A stretch of 32,000 nucleotides of DNA from Candidatus Poseidoniaceae archaeon (GCA_943789275.1 CALSTM010000001.1:150001-182000), one strand, 5' to 3'. Positions 24,301-24,569 are shown, counted from the first letter of the stretch. A program made the numbers and translations. The notes: generated by a model not told the origin, from the letters alone.

Positions 24301-24569
24301 ATGAGGATGACTCAAACGTACCAACAGGTCCAACTCCTGGTCCGTCTGGACCGGCTCCAACCTCAGGGCCGACTGGACCGGCTCCAACCTCAGGGCCGAC
24401 TGGACCGGCACCGGAAACCAAAGAAGTTCCTCCTATCGAGCAAGAAGACACCTCATGGCAAGTTGAGCATCGGGTAGACGATGACGGAACCGAATGGGCT
24501 GAAGACGAAAACGGCACATGGTGGTATCGTCAAGAAGGCGATGCTGATTGGGGCGAATGGAAAGAGTGA
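15348..24569 (+). CDS. giant (3073 aa) type-I membrane-anchored modular surface protein
   Basis: A single uninterrupted ORF starts at ATG 15348 (ATG 15378 is an alternative). The layout is:
- N-terminal signal/anchor: TALTIFLVSMFLFADVLL
- 13 alternating beta-sandwich-like modules
- about 8 Ig-like modules
- TM helix: LYYVGTGLLVIVSIVLLGLLVSVL
- acidic, Pro-rich and Trp-rich tail

Internal repeat periodicity and consistent composition support one real gene. Confidence 0.9.
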   Translation: MEEGLKALSPMLRETAPRRTALTIFLVSMFLFADVLLPQSIDFEQKLDDSPRISYAISTQSVLSDTHIMEANPSSNYNVSSSGFIGTSVNGFESRILMDFAMNFTSADSIQSATLNIVCDTSSSSPSAMNIYTASPSSWNSSLVTWYQNDLGSPWGEAGADGANDRSAWEPPFRAVSNGTYAINVTAFAQEAASTNQPHFSVLISGLGSHFECKMSEALPVSDRPELVLVTSAVAAGNGGSVVSNFADDGLPLMTGDLILTADTTPTLSYDSLVGTHVEYQLSLDSEFKDFSDLAWHYSTMQNSFTMSGTSGSFTLPSSEQFDNGSRVYYRVRSLDTTDTLSTWSTTETFLLPAHTVTDNGDGSASIEVTRNQLGDVGTFIEDSYSNELSKNTKNGASTTLQTSVTSNKESLVHLRVNLPLLGLPSNATILDAQVNLTRDSSANNPMLSMHEMASTEWVENELTWNRESNANSWSDGGRVFASTASATGFNGSQTSSNFGFGFTDVLQSWVENGESDASEFMITARGKDEAYSTTGTKTMTFFSTEATLESNQPHVFVNYRWGPSSPLADVILTGPAEDEAVWNQSGHNFTANLTPSITWTPSATNNEMLLQMATDEQFRDLTMSLNTGVDNDFSPSDGILNLTGENTLTAGNMYFWRMAYLDSDGRQGPWSSSNFLVSSLESTWLGGERSEFRMKHGNGTTDGLYPECLDTYIDSGTPNQNYNDESKILISYNTYPIEALGLLNCNLRSNLLPAGYAVESAQLSMVVASTPSNSPRVAVWENTLSNWTDSGATWNSYDGTNSWATAGAKGSERSSLLDSVQLDSTFSNGDRIFWNVTLGVQNAMRQNSSADFMIGILGVGSGSDREVQLYPGFAADVRKPELTFVYVPGSNVVPVDPVPVSPLNGSWSMGTGVDQTPIQRPTLEWSFGNTAGVGGWAVQLDKSETFDSASLLTSTSWNDAGFDAANLSYTPTTDLDDGSTWYWRVRAISPTNQIGNWSNAFTFAVPDLTTWQTCSDGSCASVELHHREAMPDLNLPNFVDTYVLQSGSGSSTTYDTSSQLKVGATSNNVQALSLLRIPLNSLPQPANARITGAELNLYSEFNSAVGEPIAVRPVYQNWNTSANGLTYDGINNWSQPGARDLGVDLGPYVDLQDSVASGWMNWDVSEAVQAALTAGSSTLSLAIYASNDITSYSNGPNVVTFTSTDGASSQHPWLNLTWSNGTGSVPATSGVNAGPANDSLSWDASSHALISDETPLFSWTYPSSVSADAWRVHIFADPSDDMAGRYTFDSRDVPAQFDLTNLTFLPSSPVDYSQTVRWTVQPILLGMIGPQSTSTVFHVPDADSGEVNSTHAWVTLQEGSMVEDQGYPMITMDTTLNGGSIFANNGASQNLIVGRSPSNSLLRTSSLIEMDFSSLPLPAIYEVTNATLTLTGVSGSGEVFVTVSEMITQWDESSSWAFPGNNTTSWVGVGAYHSDDSNIPETQGFWMNESTEFEINVTSMLQHAVERGQQSLNIILQAEESMGTVSGIYYIASSENAAIDERPKLTISYELDTPWNPTSPSNLGPVDGSTLWNLTSPLPAGADGVETNWTSADSNQTQWVLCGAMDARMVEELECFNSTASTFDTDLNITWDAQNLSAFIEGLEQADEWKYWRVRGDQDVRIGHWSHVHKFRIPDVNPYDASTDGLGNYTVTLTRGAIFENTGLLPAVPDAEISSSSTVNLGLSTAMNLGTSASGTGESQILMEFDLSSLPWPAAITPTSMLLNLYRTGVTGTSATTVSAHACSPFVESSVNWNTNVPCQSSEITRSTLTLSPATGWASWDLTSLAQSNIANGNLTMTILLKTVGSPSTSHAFYSSDGSATEYRPQLVIDYVDNVNGILPPAQPTLTSPQDGSVLYNVSGDVLQSDDRPVLVWSPVSGATGYTLTIANETGVVKYNSWESSAITSTTFRFANSLTSGEVFTWWVQGVNQSIPGPSSPRWTFAIGSPNHVDNGDLTYTYTFQTGNEVSQFGHTNIRETHLSEAYPSTNFGGNDVLELGTNFGSNSGLQSHLTFALDNGQVPLAMYSNVHSASAGFYLDSWTATGGASEMTFSVHRILNPLWAQSSSTWNESSSASSGAWGAPGMQAGVDYEATPITSFVDSNMNEDRWIWFDIGVNGMLIDNDNAWIIIGTPNQGTLLANIYSSEHSEADYRPMILLNHTDVTTIDISPTAPTTDADSTVSFSSVVYDHLSMASGAPVVWSASNGSISQSGVFTPYATGQHTVSACFGIICSSETVTVTPGSPVELIVTPETAIISADDSLQISAYVVDQFGNTVSGQTINYSPSNGSMDSSTEGLFMPMASGTQTVDVTWNGVMMTPQTITVSVLVETGIPAYFVLEGCQGAVPAGILCAVTHTLYDQFGNEIIDNSEAGDFTWTTTNGNYSESTDEYFPDHVGDWYLNLTSTSGASGSLMITVDHGQMASLELAASSTSITADEQVWINTTRIDVRGNRLPVLLELDNWVTPQDSQLLPGAPAIWSPTSRGAKIIQATYETITSEITVTVQEGAIVSLILIVDNNVSTWQNFDITSDDILDVKVKAYDQKDNRWIVSANWSLLHPDWTSQTALEQLSGDETSFVPYLASTEHYTITAVYDDGTMTHQVSINVTVSHGDLNSVSIVATGNDGLANTVFDITSDEHIDFTAALADLDTNPIDSSILGWYLTNLDTGDTSVITDELLANGMRWDASAVGNWSISASAVSDSGYNISDAVSVSVVHGKAVLVEAVLDATTQTAGQEITMVVTGTDSDGNTFPQLVEWLENDVAVANITAGENEGTYVYLATTAGAHSLKYTTGSTDATVVVTVEAQRIVDSLQIDISSTTVDQLSNFTVTVKAFDMYLNQIEVPPSANIDATGRAEVLQKGPGVWNVITLDDGQQTVTITAGKVTEERNIEVEGNIGGFFKAGGPLYYVGTGLLVIVSIVLLGLLVSVLRGGDSGYDDDDDEYDYDDEDDSNVPTGPTPGPSGPAPTSGPTGPAPTSGPTGPAPETKEVPPIEQEDTSWQVEHRVDDDGTEWAEDENGTWWYRQEGDADWGEWKE
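15531..21944 (+). other. alternating module array A1-B1-A2-B2-A3-B3-A4-B4-A5-B5-A6-B6-A7 inside the giant protein
   Basis: A modules are about 175-190 aa.
- Approximate nt ranges: 15531-16037, 16479-17027, 17460-18008, 18453-19004, 19431-19997, 20439-20963, 21375-21944.
- They start with motifs like LDTYIDSGTPNQNYN / VDTYVLQSGSGSSTTYD / IRETHLSEAYPSTNFG.
- They end with [RQKH]P-x-L-x(3)-[YWH], for example SDRPELVLV, VRKPELTFVY, DERPKLTISY, EYRPQLVIDY, DYRPMILLNH.

B modules are about 100-110 aa.
- Approximate nt ranges: 16110-16406, 17055-17384, 18045-18368, 19047-19370, 20034-20372, 20991-21302.
- They end with an FN3-like aromatic-W-R-V-R...G-x-W-S motif (VYYRVRS..STWS, MYFWRMAY..GPWS, TWYWRVRAIS..GNWS, KYWRVRGD..GHWS). 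Confidence 0.7.
21954..24140 (+). other. array of about eight Ig-like (Big_2-type) modules in the giant protein
   Basis: Units of about 85-105 aa are each closed by a V-x-V-x(1-3)-G boundary: TVTVTPGSP, ITVSVLVETG, LMITVDHGQ, ITVTVQEGA, INVTVSHGD, VSVSVVHGK, VVVTVEAQ, NIEVEG. Each has internal motifs such as Y/VxDQFGN and W..SNGSI..G.F, as in bacterial Ig-like group 2 domains. Confidence 0.65.
24346..24411 (+). repeat. 27-bp perfect tandem duplication (2.4 copies) encoding GPAPTSGPT in the cytoplasmic tail
   Basis: The unit ctggaccggctccaacctcagggccga occurs at 24346-24372 and identically at 24373-24399. A partial third copy (ctggaccggcac) follows. The repeat is in frame within the giant CDS. 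Confidence 0.9.

What the first reader, a model, noticed from the sequence alone, without database searches (positions are those of the whole stretch)
24450..24566. Shared Trp-rich C-terminal cytoplasmic motif on both surface proteins (second copy at 27173-27256)
Both proteins end, on the predicted cytoplasmic side of the TM helix, with an alignable motif containing three spaced Trp residues:
- Giant protein: SWQVEHRVDDDGTEWAEDENGTWWYRQEGDADWGEWKE
- Second protein: GWYVDVSTEMQYWDVGSDGTWTRVE

The shared core is W-[QY]-V-[ED]-x(8-11)-[EY]-W-x(5)-[DN]-G-T-W.

The spacing and the G-x-aromatic-aromatic element are reminiscent of a small three-stranded WW-like sheet. They do not match the WW consensus exactly: there is no terminal Pro, and the spacing is 18-21 residues.

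The giant protein also carries a Pro-rich segment (PTGPTPGPSGPAPTSGPTGPAPTSGPTGPAP) just upstream. That is the kind of ligand WW or SH3-like modules bind, which raises the possibility of tail-tail association or docking to a cytoplasmic partner. A conserved cytoplasmic signature on giant ectoproteins could be a sorting, anchoring or signalling tag. The third surface protein (7021-9819) lacks it.
Basis: partly seen in the sequence, partly recalled or inferred. Interest (0 to 1): 0.7.

Follow-up and report, generated by a model that had tools for sequence, protein, structure and literature searches.

The report
Conserved tail domains on archaeal adhesins
Two neighbouring giant surface proteins of an uncultured marine archaeon (Marine Group II) each end, on the inner side of the membrane, in a small tryptophan-rich folded domain that no database describes; one of the two domains is reused on many other proteins of this lineage, which suggests a shared internal docking system for cell-surface adhesins.

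Summary
The quoted sequences are at the stated coordinates. Each tail is a real, strongly conserved mini-domain, not low-complexity noise.

- **Fam1 (giant protein, last 42 aa):** 153 cluster representatives score E<=1e-3 in 1.84 billion proteins. The module is almost always the very C-terminus, 40-100 aa after the last TM helix. Carriers include CBM96 giants, FG-GAP and TSP3 surface proteins, TM-less proteins, and one protein where it sits beside a kinase. Every named source is Poseidoniales.
- **Fam2 (second protein, last 56 aa):** a helix plus a GWYVD..QYW..DGxW sheet, nearly invariant across orthologues.
- **Structure:** AlphaFold2 predicts ordered beta-sheets for both (pLDDT 90 and 94).
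- **Gene pair:** conserved in about 75 species. The second protein is a collinear paralogue of the giant's C-terminal third, through the TM helix, with tails of 106 and 109 aa. The tails are therefore positional homologues.
- **Direct similarity:** marginal (P about 0.02-0.05, and a reversed control scores higher). Two alignment registers score equally.
- **Not WW:** there is no WW, DUF2510, Pfam, NCBIfam or PDB match.
- **Pro-rich segment:** present upstream in only 22 of 153 fam1 carriers.

Best reading: cytoplasmic docking modules specific to this lineage. Their function is inferred, not shown.

The parts
15348..24569 (+). Giant type-I surface protein gene (3073 aa): N-terminal hydrophobic signal, 7 CBM96 stretches, a disaggregatase-related repeat, an Ig-like array, a TM helix and a cytoplasmic tail.
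   Evidence: ORF list and translation. Pfam CBM96 E=2.9e-49, Disaggr_repeat E=3.6e-13. Orthologues of about 3000 aa in Poseidoniales.
15405..15458 (+). N-terminal hydrophobic segment of the giant protein (TALTIFLVSMFLFADVLL), preceded by RR. Presumed signal peptide or signal anchor.
   Evidence: Read directly from the translation. No dedicated signal-peptide predictor was available.
24180..24248 (+). C-terminal TM helix of the giant protein (YYVGTGLLVIVSIVLLGLLVSVL).
   Evidence: Hydropathy scan. Aligned to the TM helix of the second protein by hhalign.
24249..24317 (+). Juxtamembrane R-G-G followed by a poly-acidic, Tyr-rich stretch (RGGDSGYDDDDDEYDYDDEDDSN).
   Evidence: Orthologues have DDDWDDDYDEDD at this position.
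24318..24413 (+). Pro-rich (PxGPxP) linker. Part of it is encoded by a 27-nt tandem repeat (24342-24409, 2.5 copies).
   Evidence: Copy number varies among orthologues. Present upstream of fam1 in only 22 of 153 carriers.
24441..24566 (+). Fam1 module: the last 42 aa (QEDTSWQVEHRVDDDGTEWAEDENGTWWYRQEGDADWGEWKE). Predicted four-stranded antiparallel sheet, 6 Trp, net charge -12.
   Evidence: Alignment A1, invariant D15-G-T-E-W19, W27, R30 and W37. AF2 pLDDT 90.3. 153 representatives at E<=1e-3. In 182 of 212 carriers the module ends at the last residue. Charge.
24611..27259 (+). Second type-I surface protein gene (882 aa), 41 nt downstream of the giant gene, with a GGTGA motif before the ATG. 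Collinear paralogue of the giant's C-terminal third.
   Evidence: BLASTP E=5e-26 over 696 aa. hhalign probability 99.3% through the TM helix. Synteny.
26873..26929 (+). TM helix of the second protein (MGLGIFLLALILVTLVALV), followed by RK.
26930..27088 (+). Acidic, aromatic juxtamembrane stretch (..EVEWTEDGFEDEVFED..) and a hypervariable linker.
   Evidence: Over residues 801-840, mean identity of the 40 divergent orthologues to the window protein is 0.17.
27089..27256 (+). Fam2 module: the last 56 aa. A helix (DDVRTTLAKKAAEV), then GVMQA, a loop, and a three-stranded sheet (GWYV / MQYWDV / WTRV).
   Evidence: Alignment A2 with 11 invariant columns. AF2 pLDDT 94.1. Present in about 73 species loci directly after the fam1 gene.

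Best explanation
**What it is.** The window comes from a Marine Group IIa archaeon (Ca. Poseidoniaceae). It holds a conserved two-gene cassette for paralogous type-I surface proteins. Each protein has:
- an N-terminal signal;
- a large glycan-binding and Ig-like ectodomain;
- one TM helix;
- an R/K stop;
- a disordered, strongly acidic linker;
- a small, independently folding, Trp-rich beta-sheet domain at the extreme C-terminus, inside the cell.

**Two domain families.** Neither is described in the databases searched.
- Fam1 is a four-stranded sheet with the pattern DGTEW..W[WY][YF]R..W.
- Fam2 is a helix plus a GWYVD..QYW.V..DGxW sheet.
- They are positional homologues. They may be highly diverged true homologues, but sequence cannot prove it.

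**How it most likely works (inferred).** The modules act as docking knobs on flexible acidic tethers. Their exposed aromatic, acidic surfaces would bind cytoplasmic partners.
- Fam1 is a promiscuous adaptor domain. It is shared by many adhesin-like surface proteins and by soluble proteins (a TPR protein and a 240-aa acidic protein), and it sits beside a kinase in one protein. It could therefore tie different surface proteins to one intracellular scaffold or signalling partner, much as integrin and cadherin tails do.
- Fam2 is specific to the giant protein's partner.

**Shown versus inferred.**
- Computed directly from sequence comparison: conservation, C-terminal position, synteny, paralogy and taxonomic range.
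- Predicted or deduced from indirect evidence: the fold (AlphaFold2 models only) and the cytoplasmic side (hydropathy, sequon depletion and domain context; no topology predictor was run).
- Inferred: binding and partner identity.
For: **Conservation**
- Fam2 is nearly invariant in 92 orthologue clusters that fall to 33% overall identity.
- In the 40 orthologues under 60% identical to the window protein, identity is 0.66 in the segment holding most of the module (residues 841-880) against 0.17 in the segment just upstream (801-840, mostly linker).
- Pairwise divergence is 0.50-0.57 at codon position 3 and about 0.2 at positions 1 and 2, which indicates selection at the protein level.

**Fam1 as a domain family**
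- 153 representatives at E<=1e-3 and 21 at E<=1e-10.
- In 182 of 212 carriers it ends at the last residue.
- It lies 40-100 aa after the last TM helix in most long carriers.
- Carriers include CBM96, FG-GAP and TSP3 proteins.

**Cytoplasmic location**
- R/K follows the TM helix.
- Sequons number 0.21-0.26 per 100 aa in tails against 1.7-2.2 in ectodomains.
- TM-less carriers: P0334/P0335 (240-244 aa, 31 cluster members, Poseidoniaceae) and the TPR protein P0192.
- P0189 carries the module just upstream of a Pkinase domain.

**Fold**
- AF2 pLDDT 94.1 for fam2 (helix plus sheet) and 90.3 for fam1 (four strands).

**Gene pair and paralogy**
- In the 83 loci examined, the fam1-ended gene is followed directly by a fam2-ended gene wherever downstream DNA exists. 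Locus L089 shows the same arrangement.
- Paralogy: BLASTP E=5e-26; hhalign E=8.7e-21, aligned through the TM helix.

**Taxonomy**
- Of the 80 best genome loci, 78 are labelled Poseidoniales or generic Euryarchaeota/Methanobacteriota/Thermoplasmatota MAGs. The other two (L062, L070) sit in bacterial-labelled MAGs and look like binning contamination.
- The cluster members that carry a source name are Poseidoniales or generic Euryarchaeota/Methanobacteriota MAGs.

**No known family**
- No Pfam, NCBIfam or PDB sequence match.
Against: - No partner has been identified, and no binding or complex prediction could be run.
- Neighbouring genes of fam1 carriers are unrelated housekeeping genes, so genomic context gives no partner.
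- The modules are extremely acidic (fam1 net charge -12 over 42 aa). A non-specific role as a charged plug is therefore conceivable.
- Topology rests on hydropathy, flanking charges, sequon depletion and domain context. No dedicated predictor or experiment was used.
- The AF2 models come from shallow alignments (18 and 35 sequences).
- Homology between fam1 and fam2 is not demonstrated by sequence.
Confidence: 0.55

Rival explanations
1. Chance resemblance. The two tails are unrelated Trp/Asp-rich ends, and the 'shared motif' is a compositional coincidence. Each may be a domain, but they are not the same one.
For: - hhalign probability is 2-2.5%.
- 9 of 200 permuted profiles reach the real score, and the reversed control scores higher.
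- There are no cross-HMM hits.
- The secondary-structure layouts differ: a helix plus three strands against four strands.
- Two registers score equally.
Against: - The carrier proteins are collinear paralogues through the TM helix, with tails of 106 and 109 aa.
- Both modules are strictly C-terminal.
- Both are Trp-rich antiparallel sheets with D-G turns at matching spacing.
- The idea that either tail is mere low complexity is refuted.
Confidence: 0.3
2. True WW-type domains that bind the Pro-rich (PxGPAPG)n segment of the giant tail, in cis or between tails.
For: - Both are small Trp-containing antiparallel sheets.
- The Pro-rich repeat lies 9 residues upstream of fam1 in the window and in many MGIIa orthologues of the giant protein.
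- Exposed aromatic residues are the usual way to bind polyproline helices (general knowledge).
Against: - No WW hit in Pfam at E<=10 for any of 53 members.
- No hit to any PDB sequence, and the PDB includes many WW domains.
- No WW domain in the top 50 Foldseek matches.
- Trp spacing is 18-19 residues rather than 20-22, and there is no W-x-x-P.
- Fam1 has four strands and fam2 has an added helix.
- Only 22 of 153 fam1 carriers have Pro-rich repeats upstream, and the fam2 tail has none.
Confidence: 0.1
3. A C-terminal sorting or targeting tag. Cellular machinery would recognise it for localisation, assembly into a surface patch, vesicle loading or turnover, rather than as a stable docking site.
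For: - Position at the extreme C-terminus is almost obligatory: the module ends within 0-5 residues of the end in 202 of 212 carriers. This is typical of sorting signals.
- It is shared by unrelated cargo proteins, including soluble ones.
Against: - Known archaeal C-terminal signals (PGF-CTERM and similar) consist of the TM helix plus a short basic tail. They are not a folded domain 100 aa beyond the TM helix (general knowledge).
- One carrier has the module internally, before a kinase domain.
- No machinery gene co-occurs in the loci examined.
Confidence: 0.15
4. A mechanical stopper. A compact, highly charged knot prevents the single TM anchor of a very large ectodomain from being pulled through the membrane, with no specific ligand.
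For: - Tail net charge is -26 and -23.
- The modules occur on very large, single-pass proteins.
Against: - Residue-specific invariance (DGTEW, W27, R30, W37; Q21, A22, Q28, G29, GWY) goes beyond what a charge plug needs.
- Fam1 also occurs on soluble proteins with no TM helix.
- The acidic linker alone would already serve as a charge barrier.
Confidence: 0.07
5. The modules are extracellular ligand-binding hairpins related to choline-binding (cell-wall-binding) repeats.
For: - Sub-threshold Choline_bind_1 hits in 3 of 18 fam1 members, best E=0.026.
- Bacterial proteins with tandem G.WYY hairpins appear as weak multi-stretch hits of the fam1 profile.
Against: - The topology evidence points to the cytoplasm.
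- There is a single copy with two hairpins, not a tandem solenoid.
- All scores are below the Pfam threshold.
Confidence: 0.03

Closest known systems
WW domain (Pfam PF00397)
   Same: Very small Trp-containing antiparallel beta-sheet with an aromatic pair in the central strand. Usually a cytoplasmic protein-protein adaptor module.
   Different: - No profile or PDB sequence match, and no WW domain among the top Foldseek hits.
- Trp spacing is 18-19 residues and there is no C-terminal Pro.
- Fam1 has a fourth strand and fam2 has an N-terminal helix plus a short extra strand.
- Extremely acidic.
Choline-binding / cell-wall-binding repeat (Pfam PF01473)
   Same: The G-x-W-[WY]-[YF]...G....W beta-hairpin signature. 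It is the only Pfam family with any hits, all sub-threshold, and weak hits run in both directions.
   Different: Those repeats are extracellular tandem arrays of many hairpins in bacteria. Here there are two hairpins in a single copy, on the cytoplasmic side, in archaea, and all scores fall below threshold.
Single blade of a beta-propeller (NHL repeat of PknD, tectonin) and CopK, the best Foldseek matches
   Same: A four-stranded antiparallel meander of about 40 residues. TM-score 0.6-0.7 normalised to the query, rmsd 1.1-2.1 A over 30-42 columns.
   Different: E-values of 0.7-3 are not significant. Those are parts of larger closed folds, whereas fam1 stands alone.
Cytoplasmic tails of integrins and cadherins (functional analogy only)
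   Same: Large adhesive ectodomains, including FG-GAP propeller proteins, a single TM helix, and a short conserved cytoplasmic tail proposed to dock to intracellular adaptors.
   Different: No sequence or fold relationship. The eukaryotic tails are mostly linear motifs rather than folded mini-domains. No archaeal partner is known.
DUF2510 (Pfam PF10708; motif GWYPDP...RYWDG..WT recalled from memory)
   Same: Fam2's GWY-x-D ... [YF]W ... G-x-W pattern, and a cytoplasmic position next to TM segments.
   Different: No hmmscan hit at E<=10 for any of the 35 fam2 members. The resemblance rests on memory only. No paper in the library mentions DUF2510.

Membership tests
WW domain (PF00397) | Significant match to the family profile | tested here: not met
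   No WW hit at E<=10 for either tail or for any of the 18 + 35 module sequences. No PDB chain matched fam1 at E<=10, and none of the 12 weak fam2 matches is a WW domain.
WW domain (PF00397) | Two signature Trp residues 20-22 apart, and a conserved Pro three residues after the second Trp | tested here: not met
   Invariant Trp pairs are W19-W37 (18 apart) in fam1 and W33-W52 (19 apart) in fam2. The sequences end WGEWKE and WTRVE, with no Pro.
WW domain (PF00397) | Three-stranded antiparallel sheet of about 35-40 residues | tested here: inconclusive
WW domain (PF00397) | Binds Pro-rich ligands | not testable with these tools
   No complex prediction or binding assay was possible. Indirectly, Pro-rich repeats accompany fam1 in only 22 of 153 carriers.
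Choline-binding repeat (PF01473) | Profile match above the gathering threshold, in tandem arrays | tested here: not met
   3 of 18 members match, with best E=0.026, below threshold. Each protein has one module, not a tandem array.
DUF2510 (PF10708) | Profile match | tested here: not met
   No hit at E<=10.
Archaeal C-terminal sorting signals (PGF-CTERM / archaeosortase type) | A tripartite signal at the very C-terminus: a short motif, a TM helix and a few basic residues | tested here: not met
   The TM helix is followed by a tail of 106-109 aa that ends in a folded module. No NCBIfam sorting-signal model matched.
Fam1 (new family defined here: DGTEW..W[WY][YF]R..W C-terminal module) | Match to the A1 profile at the extreme C-terminus, downstream of a TM helix and an acidic linker | tested here: met
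   The window's giant protein scores 67 bits over residues 3032-3073. 153 representatives score E<=1e-3.
Fam2 (new family defined here: helix-GVMQA-QG-GWYVD..QYW.V..DGxW) | Match to the A2 profile at the extreme C-terminus of the gene directly downstream of the fam1 giant gene | tested here: met
   The window's second protein scores 98.6 bits. The same arrangement is seen in about 73 species loci.

The most novel reading that the evidence does not exclude
Poseidoniales may have a lineage-specific, domain-based cytoplasmic network for their cell-surface adhesins. In this reading, fam1 is a common docking domain. It would link many different adhesin-like surface proteins (CBM96 giants, FG-GAP 'integrin-like' propeller proteins, TSP3 proteins) to soluble adaptors carrying the same domain (a TPR protein and a small acidic protein) and to a membrane Ser/Thr kinase. 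That would amount to an archaeal counterpart of adhesion-receptor tail signalling. The fam1 and fam2 tails of the conserved gene pair would form a heteromeric cytoplasmic junction.
Probability: 0.2. Interest if true: 0.8.

Novelty: new variant of a known kind. Interest (0 to 1): 0.58.

Why it matters
Marine Group II archaea are among the most abundant archaea in the surface ocean. They are uncultured and are thought to live attached to particles and to degrade polymers. Published genome analyses mention their adhesion-domain proteins (PMC6461757, PMC4511931), but those papers do not mention the cytoplasmic ends of these proteins.

A conserved, folded cytoplasmic domain shared by many surface proteins, some soluble proteins and a kinase-containing protein gives a concrete, testable handle on several questions:
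- how these cells organise, anchor or sense through their surface proteins;
- how to define two new domain families for annotation;
- how to use fam1 as a simple marker for cataloguing the Poseidoniales surface proteome.

For the genome scan itself, the result shows that short Trp-rich C-termini flagged by eye can be genuine domains. It also shows that a 'shared motif' between two of them needs paralogy evidence rather than motif matching.

Tried and rejected
1. **Word-indexed search with the fam2 profile.** It returned only short fragments of the same family, so it said nothing about wider distribution.
2. **Foldseek against the PDB for both models.** No significant match was found. Fam1 resembles single propeller blades only generically.
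4. **WW and DUF2510 leads.** No profile support. No literature on DUF2510.
5. **EF-hand or DxDxDG calcium loops in VDDDG / EDENG.** Rejected by inspection: the Gly sits at the wrong position relative to the Asp residues.
6. **Viral copies of either module.** None found.
7. **Genomic context of other fam1 carriers.** No recurrent neighbouring gene that could be a partner.
8. **Literature searches on cytoplasmic tails of MGII surface proteins.** Nothing relevant. Only general mentions of adhesion domains, thrombospondin and flotillin.
9. **Deciding the alignment register between fam1 and fam2.** This stays unresolved.
10. **RNA element or opposite-strand gene under the tail.** No ORF of 80 aa or more overlaps 24450-24566 on the minus strand, and there is no Rfam hit there.

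
Full report
**1. What is in the sequence**

The finding lies at the 3' end of a 3073-codon ORF (15348-24569, + strand). 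A second copy was reported at the 3' end of the next ORF, whose ATG is at 24611 and stop at 27259 (882 aa). Both quoted peptides, the Pro-rich segment and the coordinates are correct.

The closest database protein to the second ORF is 99% identical and comes from a Candidatus Poseidoniaceae archaeon, that is Marine Group IIa.

The giant protein has the following parts:
- an N-terminal hydrophobic segment;
- seven CBM96 stretches and a disaggregatase-related repeat;
- an Ig-like array;
- one TM helix (residues 2945-2967);
- a 106-aa tail.

The second protein has an N-terminal hydrophobic segment, Ig-like domains, a TM helix (755-773) and a 109-aa tail.

The third surface protein (7021-9819) ends in a short tail with no Trp and matches neither module.

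**2. Each tail is a real domain**

*Fam2, the tail of the second protein.* Orthologues of the second protein fall to 33-50% overall identity. Their last 56 residues nevertheless keep the pattern LA..A...GVMQA.PGT.QG.(S/T)GWYVDVS.E.QYW.V..DG.W.R, with 11 invariant columns. I compared the window protein with the 40 orthologues under 60% identical to it. Identity is 0.66 in the segment holding most of the module (residues 841-880) and 0.17 in the segment just upstream (801-840, mostly linker).

*Fam1, the tail of the giant protein.* Orthologues of the giant's C-terminal part all end in ..VD(D/E)DGTEW(A/W).(D/E)...W(W/Y)(Y/F)R..G...W.EW.(D/E). The invariant residues are D15-G-T-E-W19, W27, R30 and W37. 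The Trp of 'SWQVE' is missing in several orthologues.

*Selection acts on the protein.* Across species, codon position 3 differs at 0.50-0.57 per site and positions 1 and 2 at about 0.2. The conservation is therefore at the protein level and does not reflect a nucleotide element.

*Structure prediction.* AlphaFold2 models, built with these alignments, are confident.
- Fam2: pLDDT 94.1, with helix 4-17, a two-residue strand, and strands 32-35, 41-46 and 52-55.
- Fam1: pLDDT 90.3, with four strands at 9-12, 18-21, 27-30 and 38-39.

**3. Fam1 is a widely reused C-terminal module**

I searched the fam1 profile with HMMER against 1.84 billion cluster representatives. It gave 153 proteins at E<=1e-3 and 21 at E<=1e-10.

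*Position.* Among all carriers fetched, the module ends exactly at the last residue in 182 of 212, and within 5 residues in 20 more. In most long proteins it lies 40-100 aa after the last TM helix.

*Carriers are diverse*:
- CBM96 giants of about 3000 aa;
- FG-GAP/VCBS propeller proteins of 1170-1531 aa;
- TSP3-repeat proteins;
- several families with no Pfam domain.

*Carriers without a TM helix or signal peptide*:
- a 631-aa TPR protein (P0192);
- a 240-244-aa acidic protein family with 31 cluster members, named members from Poseidoniaceae (P0334/P0335);
- a multi-pass membrane protein (P0189) that carries the module internally, about 70 residues before a Ser/Thr kinase domain.

*Taxonomy.* The cluster members that carry a source name are Poseidoniales or generically labelled Euryarchaeota/Methanobacteriota MAGs. 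Of the 80 best loci in GTDB species genomes, 78 are labelled Poseidoniales or generic Euryarchaeota, Methanobacteriota or Thermoplasmatota MAGs. The other two are in bacterial-labelled MAGs that carry the same archaeal gene pair, so they are probably binning contaminants.

Viral contigs hold no copy of either module.

**4. Which side of the membrane**

No topology predictor was available. Four lines of evidence agree that the tails are cytoplasmic.
- The layout is an N-terminal hydrophobic signal plus a single C-terminal TM helix, with R/K immediately after that helix.
- N-x-S/T sequons number 1.7-2.2 per 100 aa in the ectodomains and 0.21-0.26 in the tails.
- Fam1 occurs on proteins with no signal peptide and no TM helix.
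- Fam1 sits next to a kinase domain in one protein.

Both tails are strongly acidic, with net charges of -26 and -23. Both have an acidic, aromatic stretch next to the membrane.

**5. Are the two tails the same motif?**

*Direct sequence evidence is weak.*
- hhalign of the two module alignments gives probability 2% and P = 0.024. With broader alignments of 173 and 107 sequences it gives 2.5% and P = 0.018.
- 9 of 200 column-permuted fam2 profiles reach the real score, and the reversed profile scores higher.
- Neither HMM finds the other tail at E<=100.
- My own profile Smith-Waterman test gave 18 of 500 permutations at or above the real score.
- A second register pairs the invariant Trp residues of both families: W19, W27-28 and W37 with W33, Y43-W44 and W52.

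*Indirect evidence for common descent is strong.*
- The second protein is a collinear paralogue of the giant's C-terminal third (BLASTP, 24% identity over 696 aa, E = 5e-26).
- hhalign of the last 330 residues of 70 and 68 orthologues aligns them at probability 99.3%, E = 8.7e-21. The alignment runs through the last Ig-like domains, the TM helix and the first tail residues.
- The remaining tails are 106 and 109 aa, and each ends in its module.

The modules therefore occupy equivalent positions in duplicated proteins. They are either highly diverged homologues, or one has replaced the other.

**6. The gene pair**

In three metagenomic loci and in the genome loci where downstream DNA exists, the fam1-ended giant gene is followed within a few tens of bases by a fam2-ended gene of about 870 aa. 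The flanking genes are the same in the metagenomic loci: RFC small subunit on one side, and an amino-acid permease (fused to an EF-hand pair in L001-L003) plus LigB-type genes on the other.

In the window the gap is 41 nt, with GGTGA before the ATG and no T-run. This suggests co-transcription, which is an inference.

A divergent locus (L089) has a third gene whose product ends GWYFDAENRPVHWRFNIEKGWLQE. It is a weak fam2 match at E = 0.0035.

**7. Comparison with known families**

- Neither tail matches any Pfam or NCBIfam model.
- Scanning all 53 module sequences one by one gives no WW and no DUF2510 hit at E<=10. The only hits are sub-threshold Choline_bind_1 matches in 3 of 18 fam1 members, best E = 0.026.
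- Profile searches of all PDB sequences give nothing for fam1 and only weak chance-level hits for fam2, at E >= 0.2.
- Foldseek against the PDB gives no significant match and no WW domain in the top 50. Fam1 resembles a single propeller blade or other beta-meander, with TM-score 0.6-0.7 at E about 1.
- WW-defining features are absent: Trp spacing of 20-22 residues, the W-x-x-P motif, and a match to the family profile.

The modules may work like WW domains, as small aromatic adaptor sheets, but they are not members of that family.

The Pro-rich segment is not a general companion of fam1. Only 22 of 153 carriers have it. In the window part of it is a 27-nt tandem repeat whose copy number varies among orthologues.

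**8. Most likely mechanism**

The data establish by direct sequence comparison two conserved, strictly C-terminal mini-domains on a conserved paralogous gene pair, one of them reused across many Poseidoniales proteins. The folds are AlphaFold2 predictions, and the cytoplasmic side is deduced from indirect evidence.

I infer that they are docking modules held on flexible acidic tethers. Fam1 would connect diverse surface proteins, and some soluble and kinase proteins, to a common cytoplasmic partner or to each other. Fam2 would serve the giant protein's dedicated partner, perhaps pairing with fam1.

The rival explanations cannot be excluded without experiments: a sorting tag, a charged mechanical stopper, a true WW-type binder of Pro-rich segments, and an extracellular hairpin. 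Each fits the data less well, as set out in the rival entries.

**9. Novelty and score**

The two modules are undescribed domain families in a globally abundant, uncultured archaeal order. The papers I opened mention adhesion domains but say nothing about cytoplasmic tails, and the literature searches turned up nothing on them.

The general kind, a conserved cytoplasmic tail domain on adhesins, is known from other systems. I therefore rate this a new variant of a known kind, with moderate to good interest (0.58). The 'integrin-like network' reading would be considerably more interesting if confirmed.

Noticed in passing
window 12872-12998 (-): Rfam finds a tRNA spanning 127 nt that matches the full 71-position model, so it presumably contains an intron. 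ARAGORN reports no tRNA in the window. It overlaps the 5' end of the mechanical ORF 11424-12923 (asparaginase/GatD-like), whose true start must lie further downstream.
   Followed up: no
window 3012-4514 (-): A flotillin/SPFH (Band 7) gene. Flotillin is a scaffold on the cytoplasmic face of the membrane and is reported as highly transcribed in MGII (PMC6461757). It is a conceivable but untested partner for the tail modules.
   Followed up: no
window 27408-29060 (-): An amino-acid permease fused to a C-terminal pair of EF-hands. In loci L001-L003 the same permease/EF-hand fusion lies 0-1 genes downstream of the surface-protein pair. In L089 a permease with no recorded EF-hand hit lies three genes downstream.
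   Followed up: partly
window 24249-24317 and 26930-26990: Both tails start with R/K followed by a poly-acidic stretch containing conserved aromatic residues. Orthologues have DDDWDDDYDEDD in the giant protein and EEWVEDAFEDDE in the second protein. This acidic, Trp-containing juxtamembrane element is shared by both families and by the FG-GAP carriers.
   Followed up: partly
window 24342-24409: A 27-nt tandem repeat (2.5 copies, 97% matches) encodes PTSGPTGPA. The number of PxGPAPG units varies among orthologues. NCBI names one fragment of this protein 'collagen-like protein'.
   Followed up: partly
window 21960-24000 vs 24761-26686: The second protein is a collinear paralogue of the giant protein's C-terminal Ig-like array, TM helix and start of the tail. 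The cassette therefore arose by partial duplication, or the giant protein arose by fusion.
   Followed up: yes
L062 and L070: Contigs assigned to bacterial MAGs (an uncultured Rhodobiaceae bacterium and Salipiger bermudensis) carry the archaeal fam1/fam2 gene pair. This is probably binning contamination in those public MAGs.
   Followed up: no
L087 4399-7287 (protein P0189): A multi-pass membrane protein carries an internal fam1 module (residues 615-655) followed by a Ser/Thr protein kinase domain. Its neighbours are another kinase gene and a VWA gene. It was seen on a single contig.
   Followed up: partly
L089 13314-15791: In a divergent locus, a third gene after the pair encodes an 825-aa surface protein that ends GWYFDAENRPVHWRFNIEKGWLQE. 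It is a remote fam2-like tail, with E = 0.0035 among the locus ORFs.
   Followed up: partly
protein P0192 (TPR carrier of fam1), residues 1-25: Its N-terminus reads MADPISSPDGKWLWTGSEWIPAPP, which looks like another short Trp-rich hairpin motif at the opposite end of a soluble fam1 carrier.
   Followed up: no
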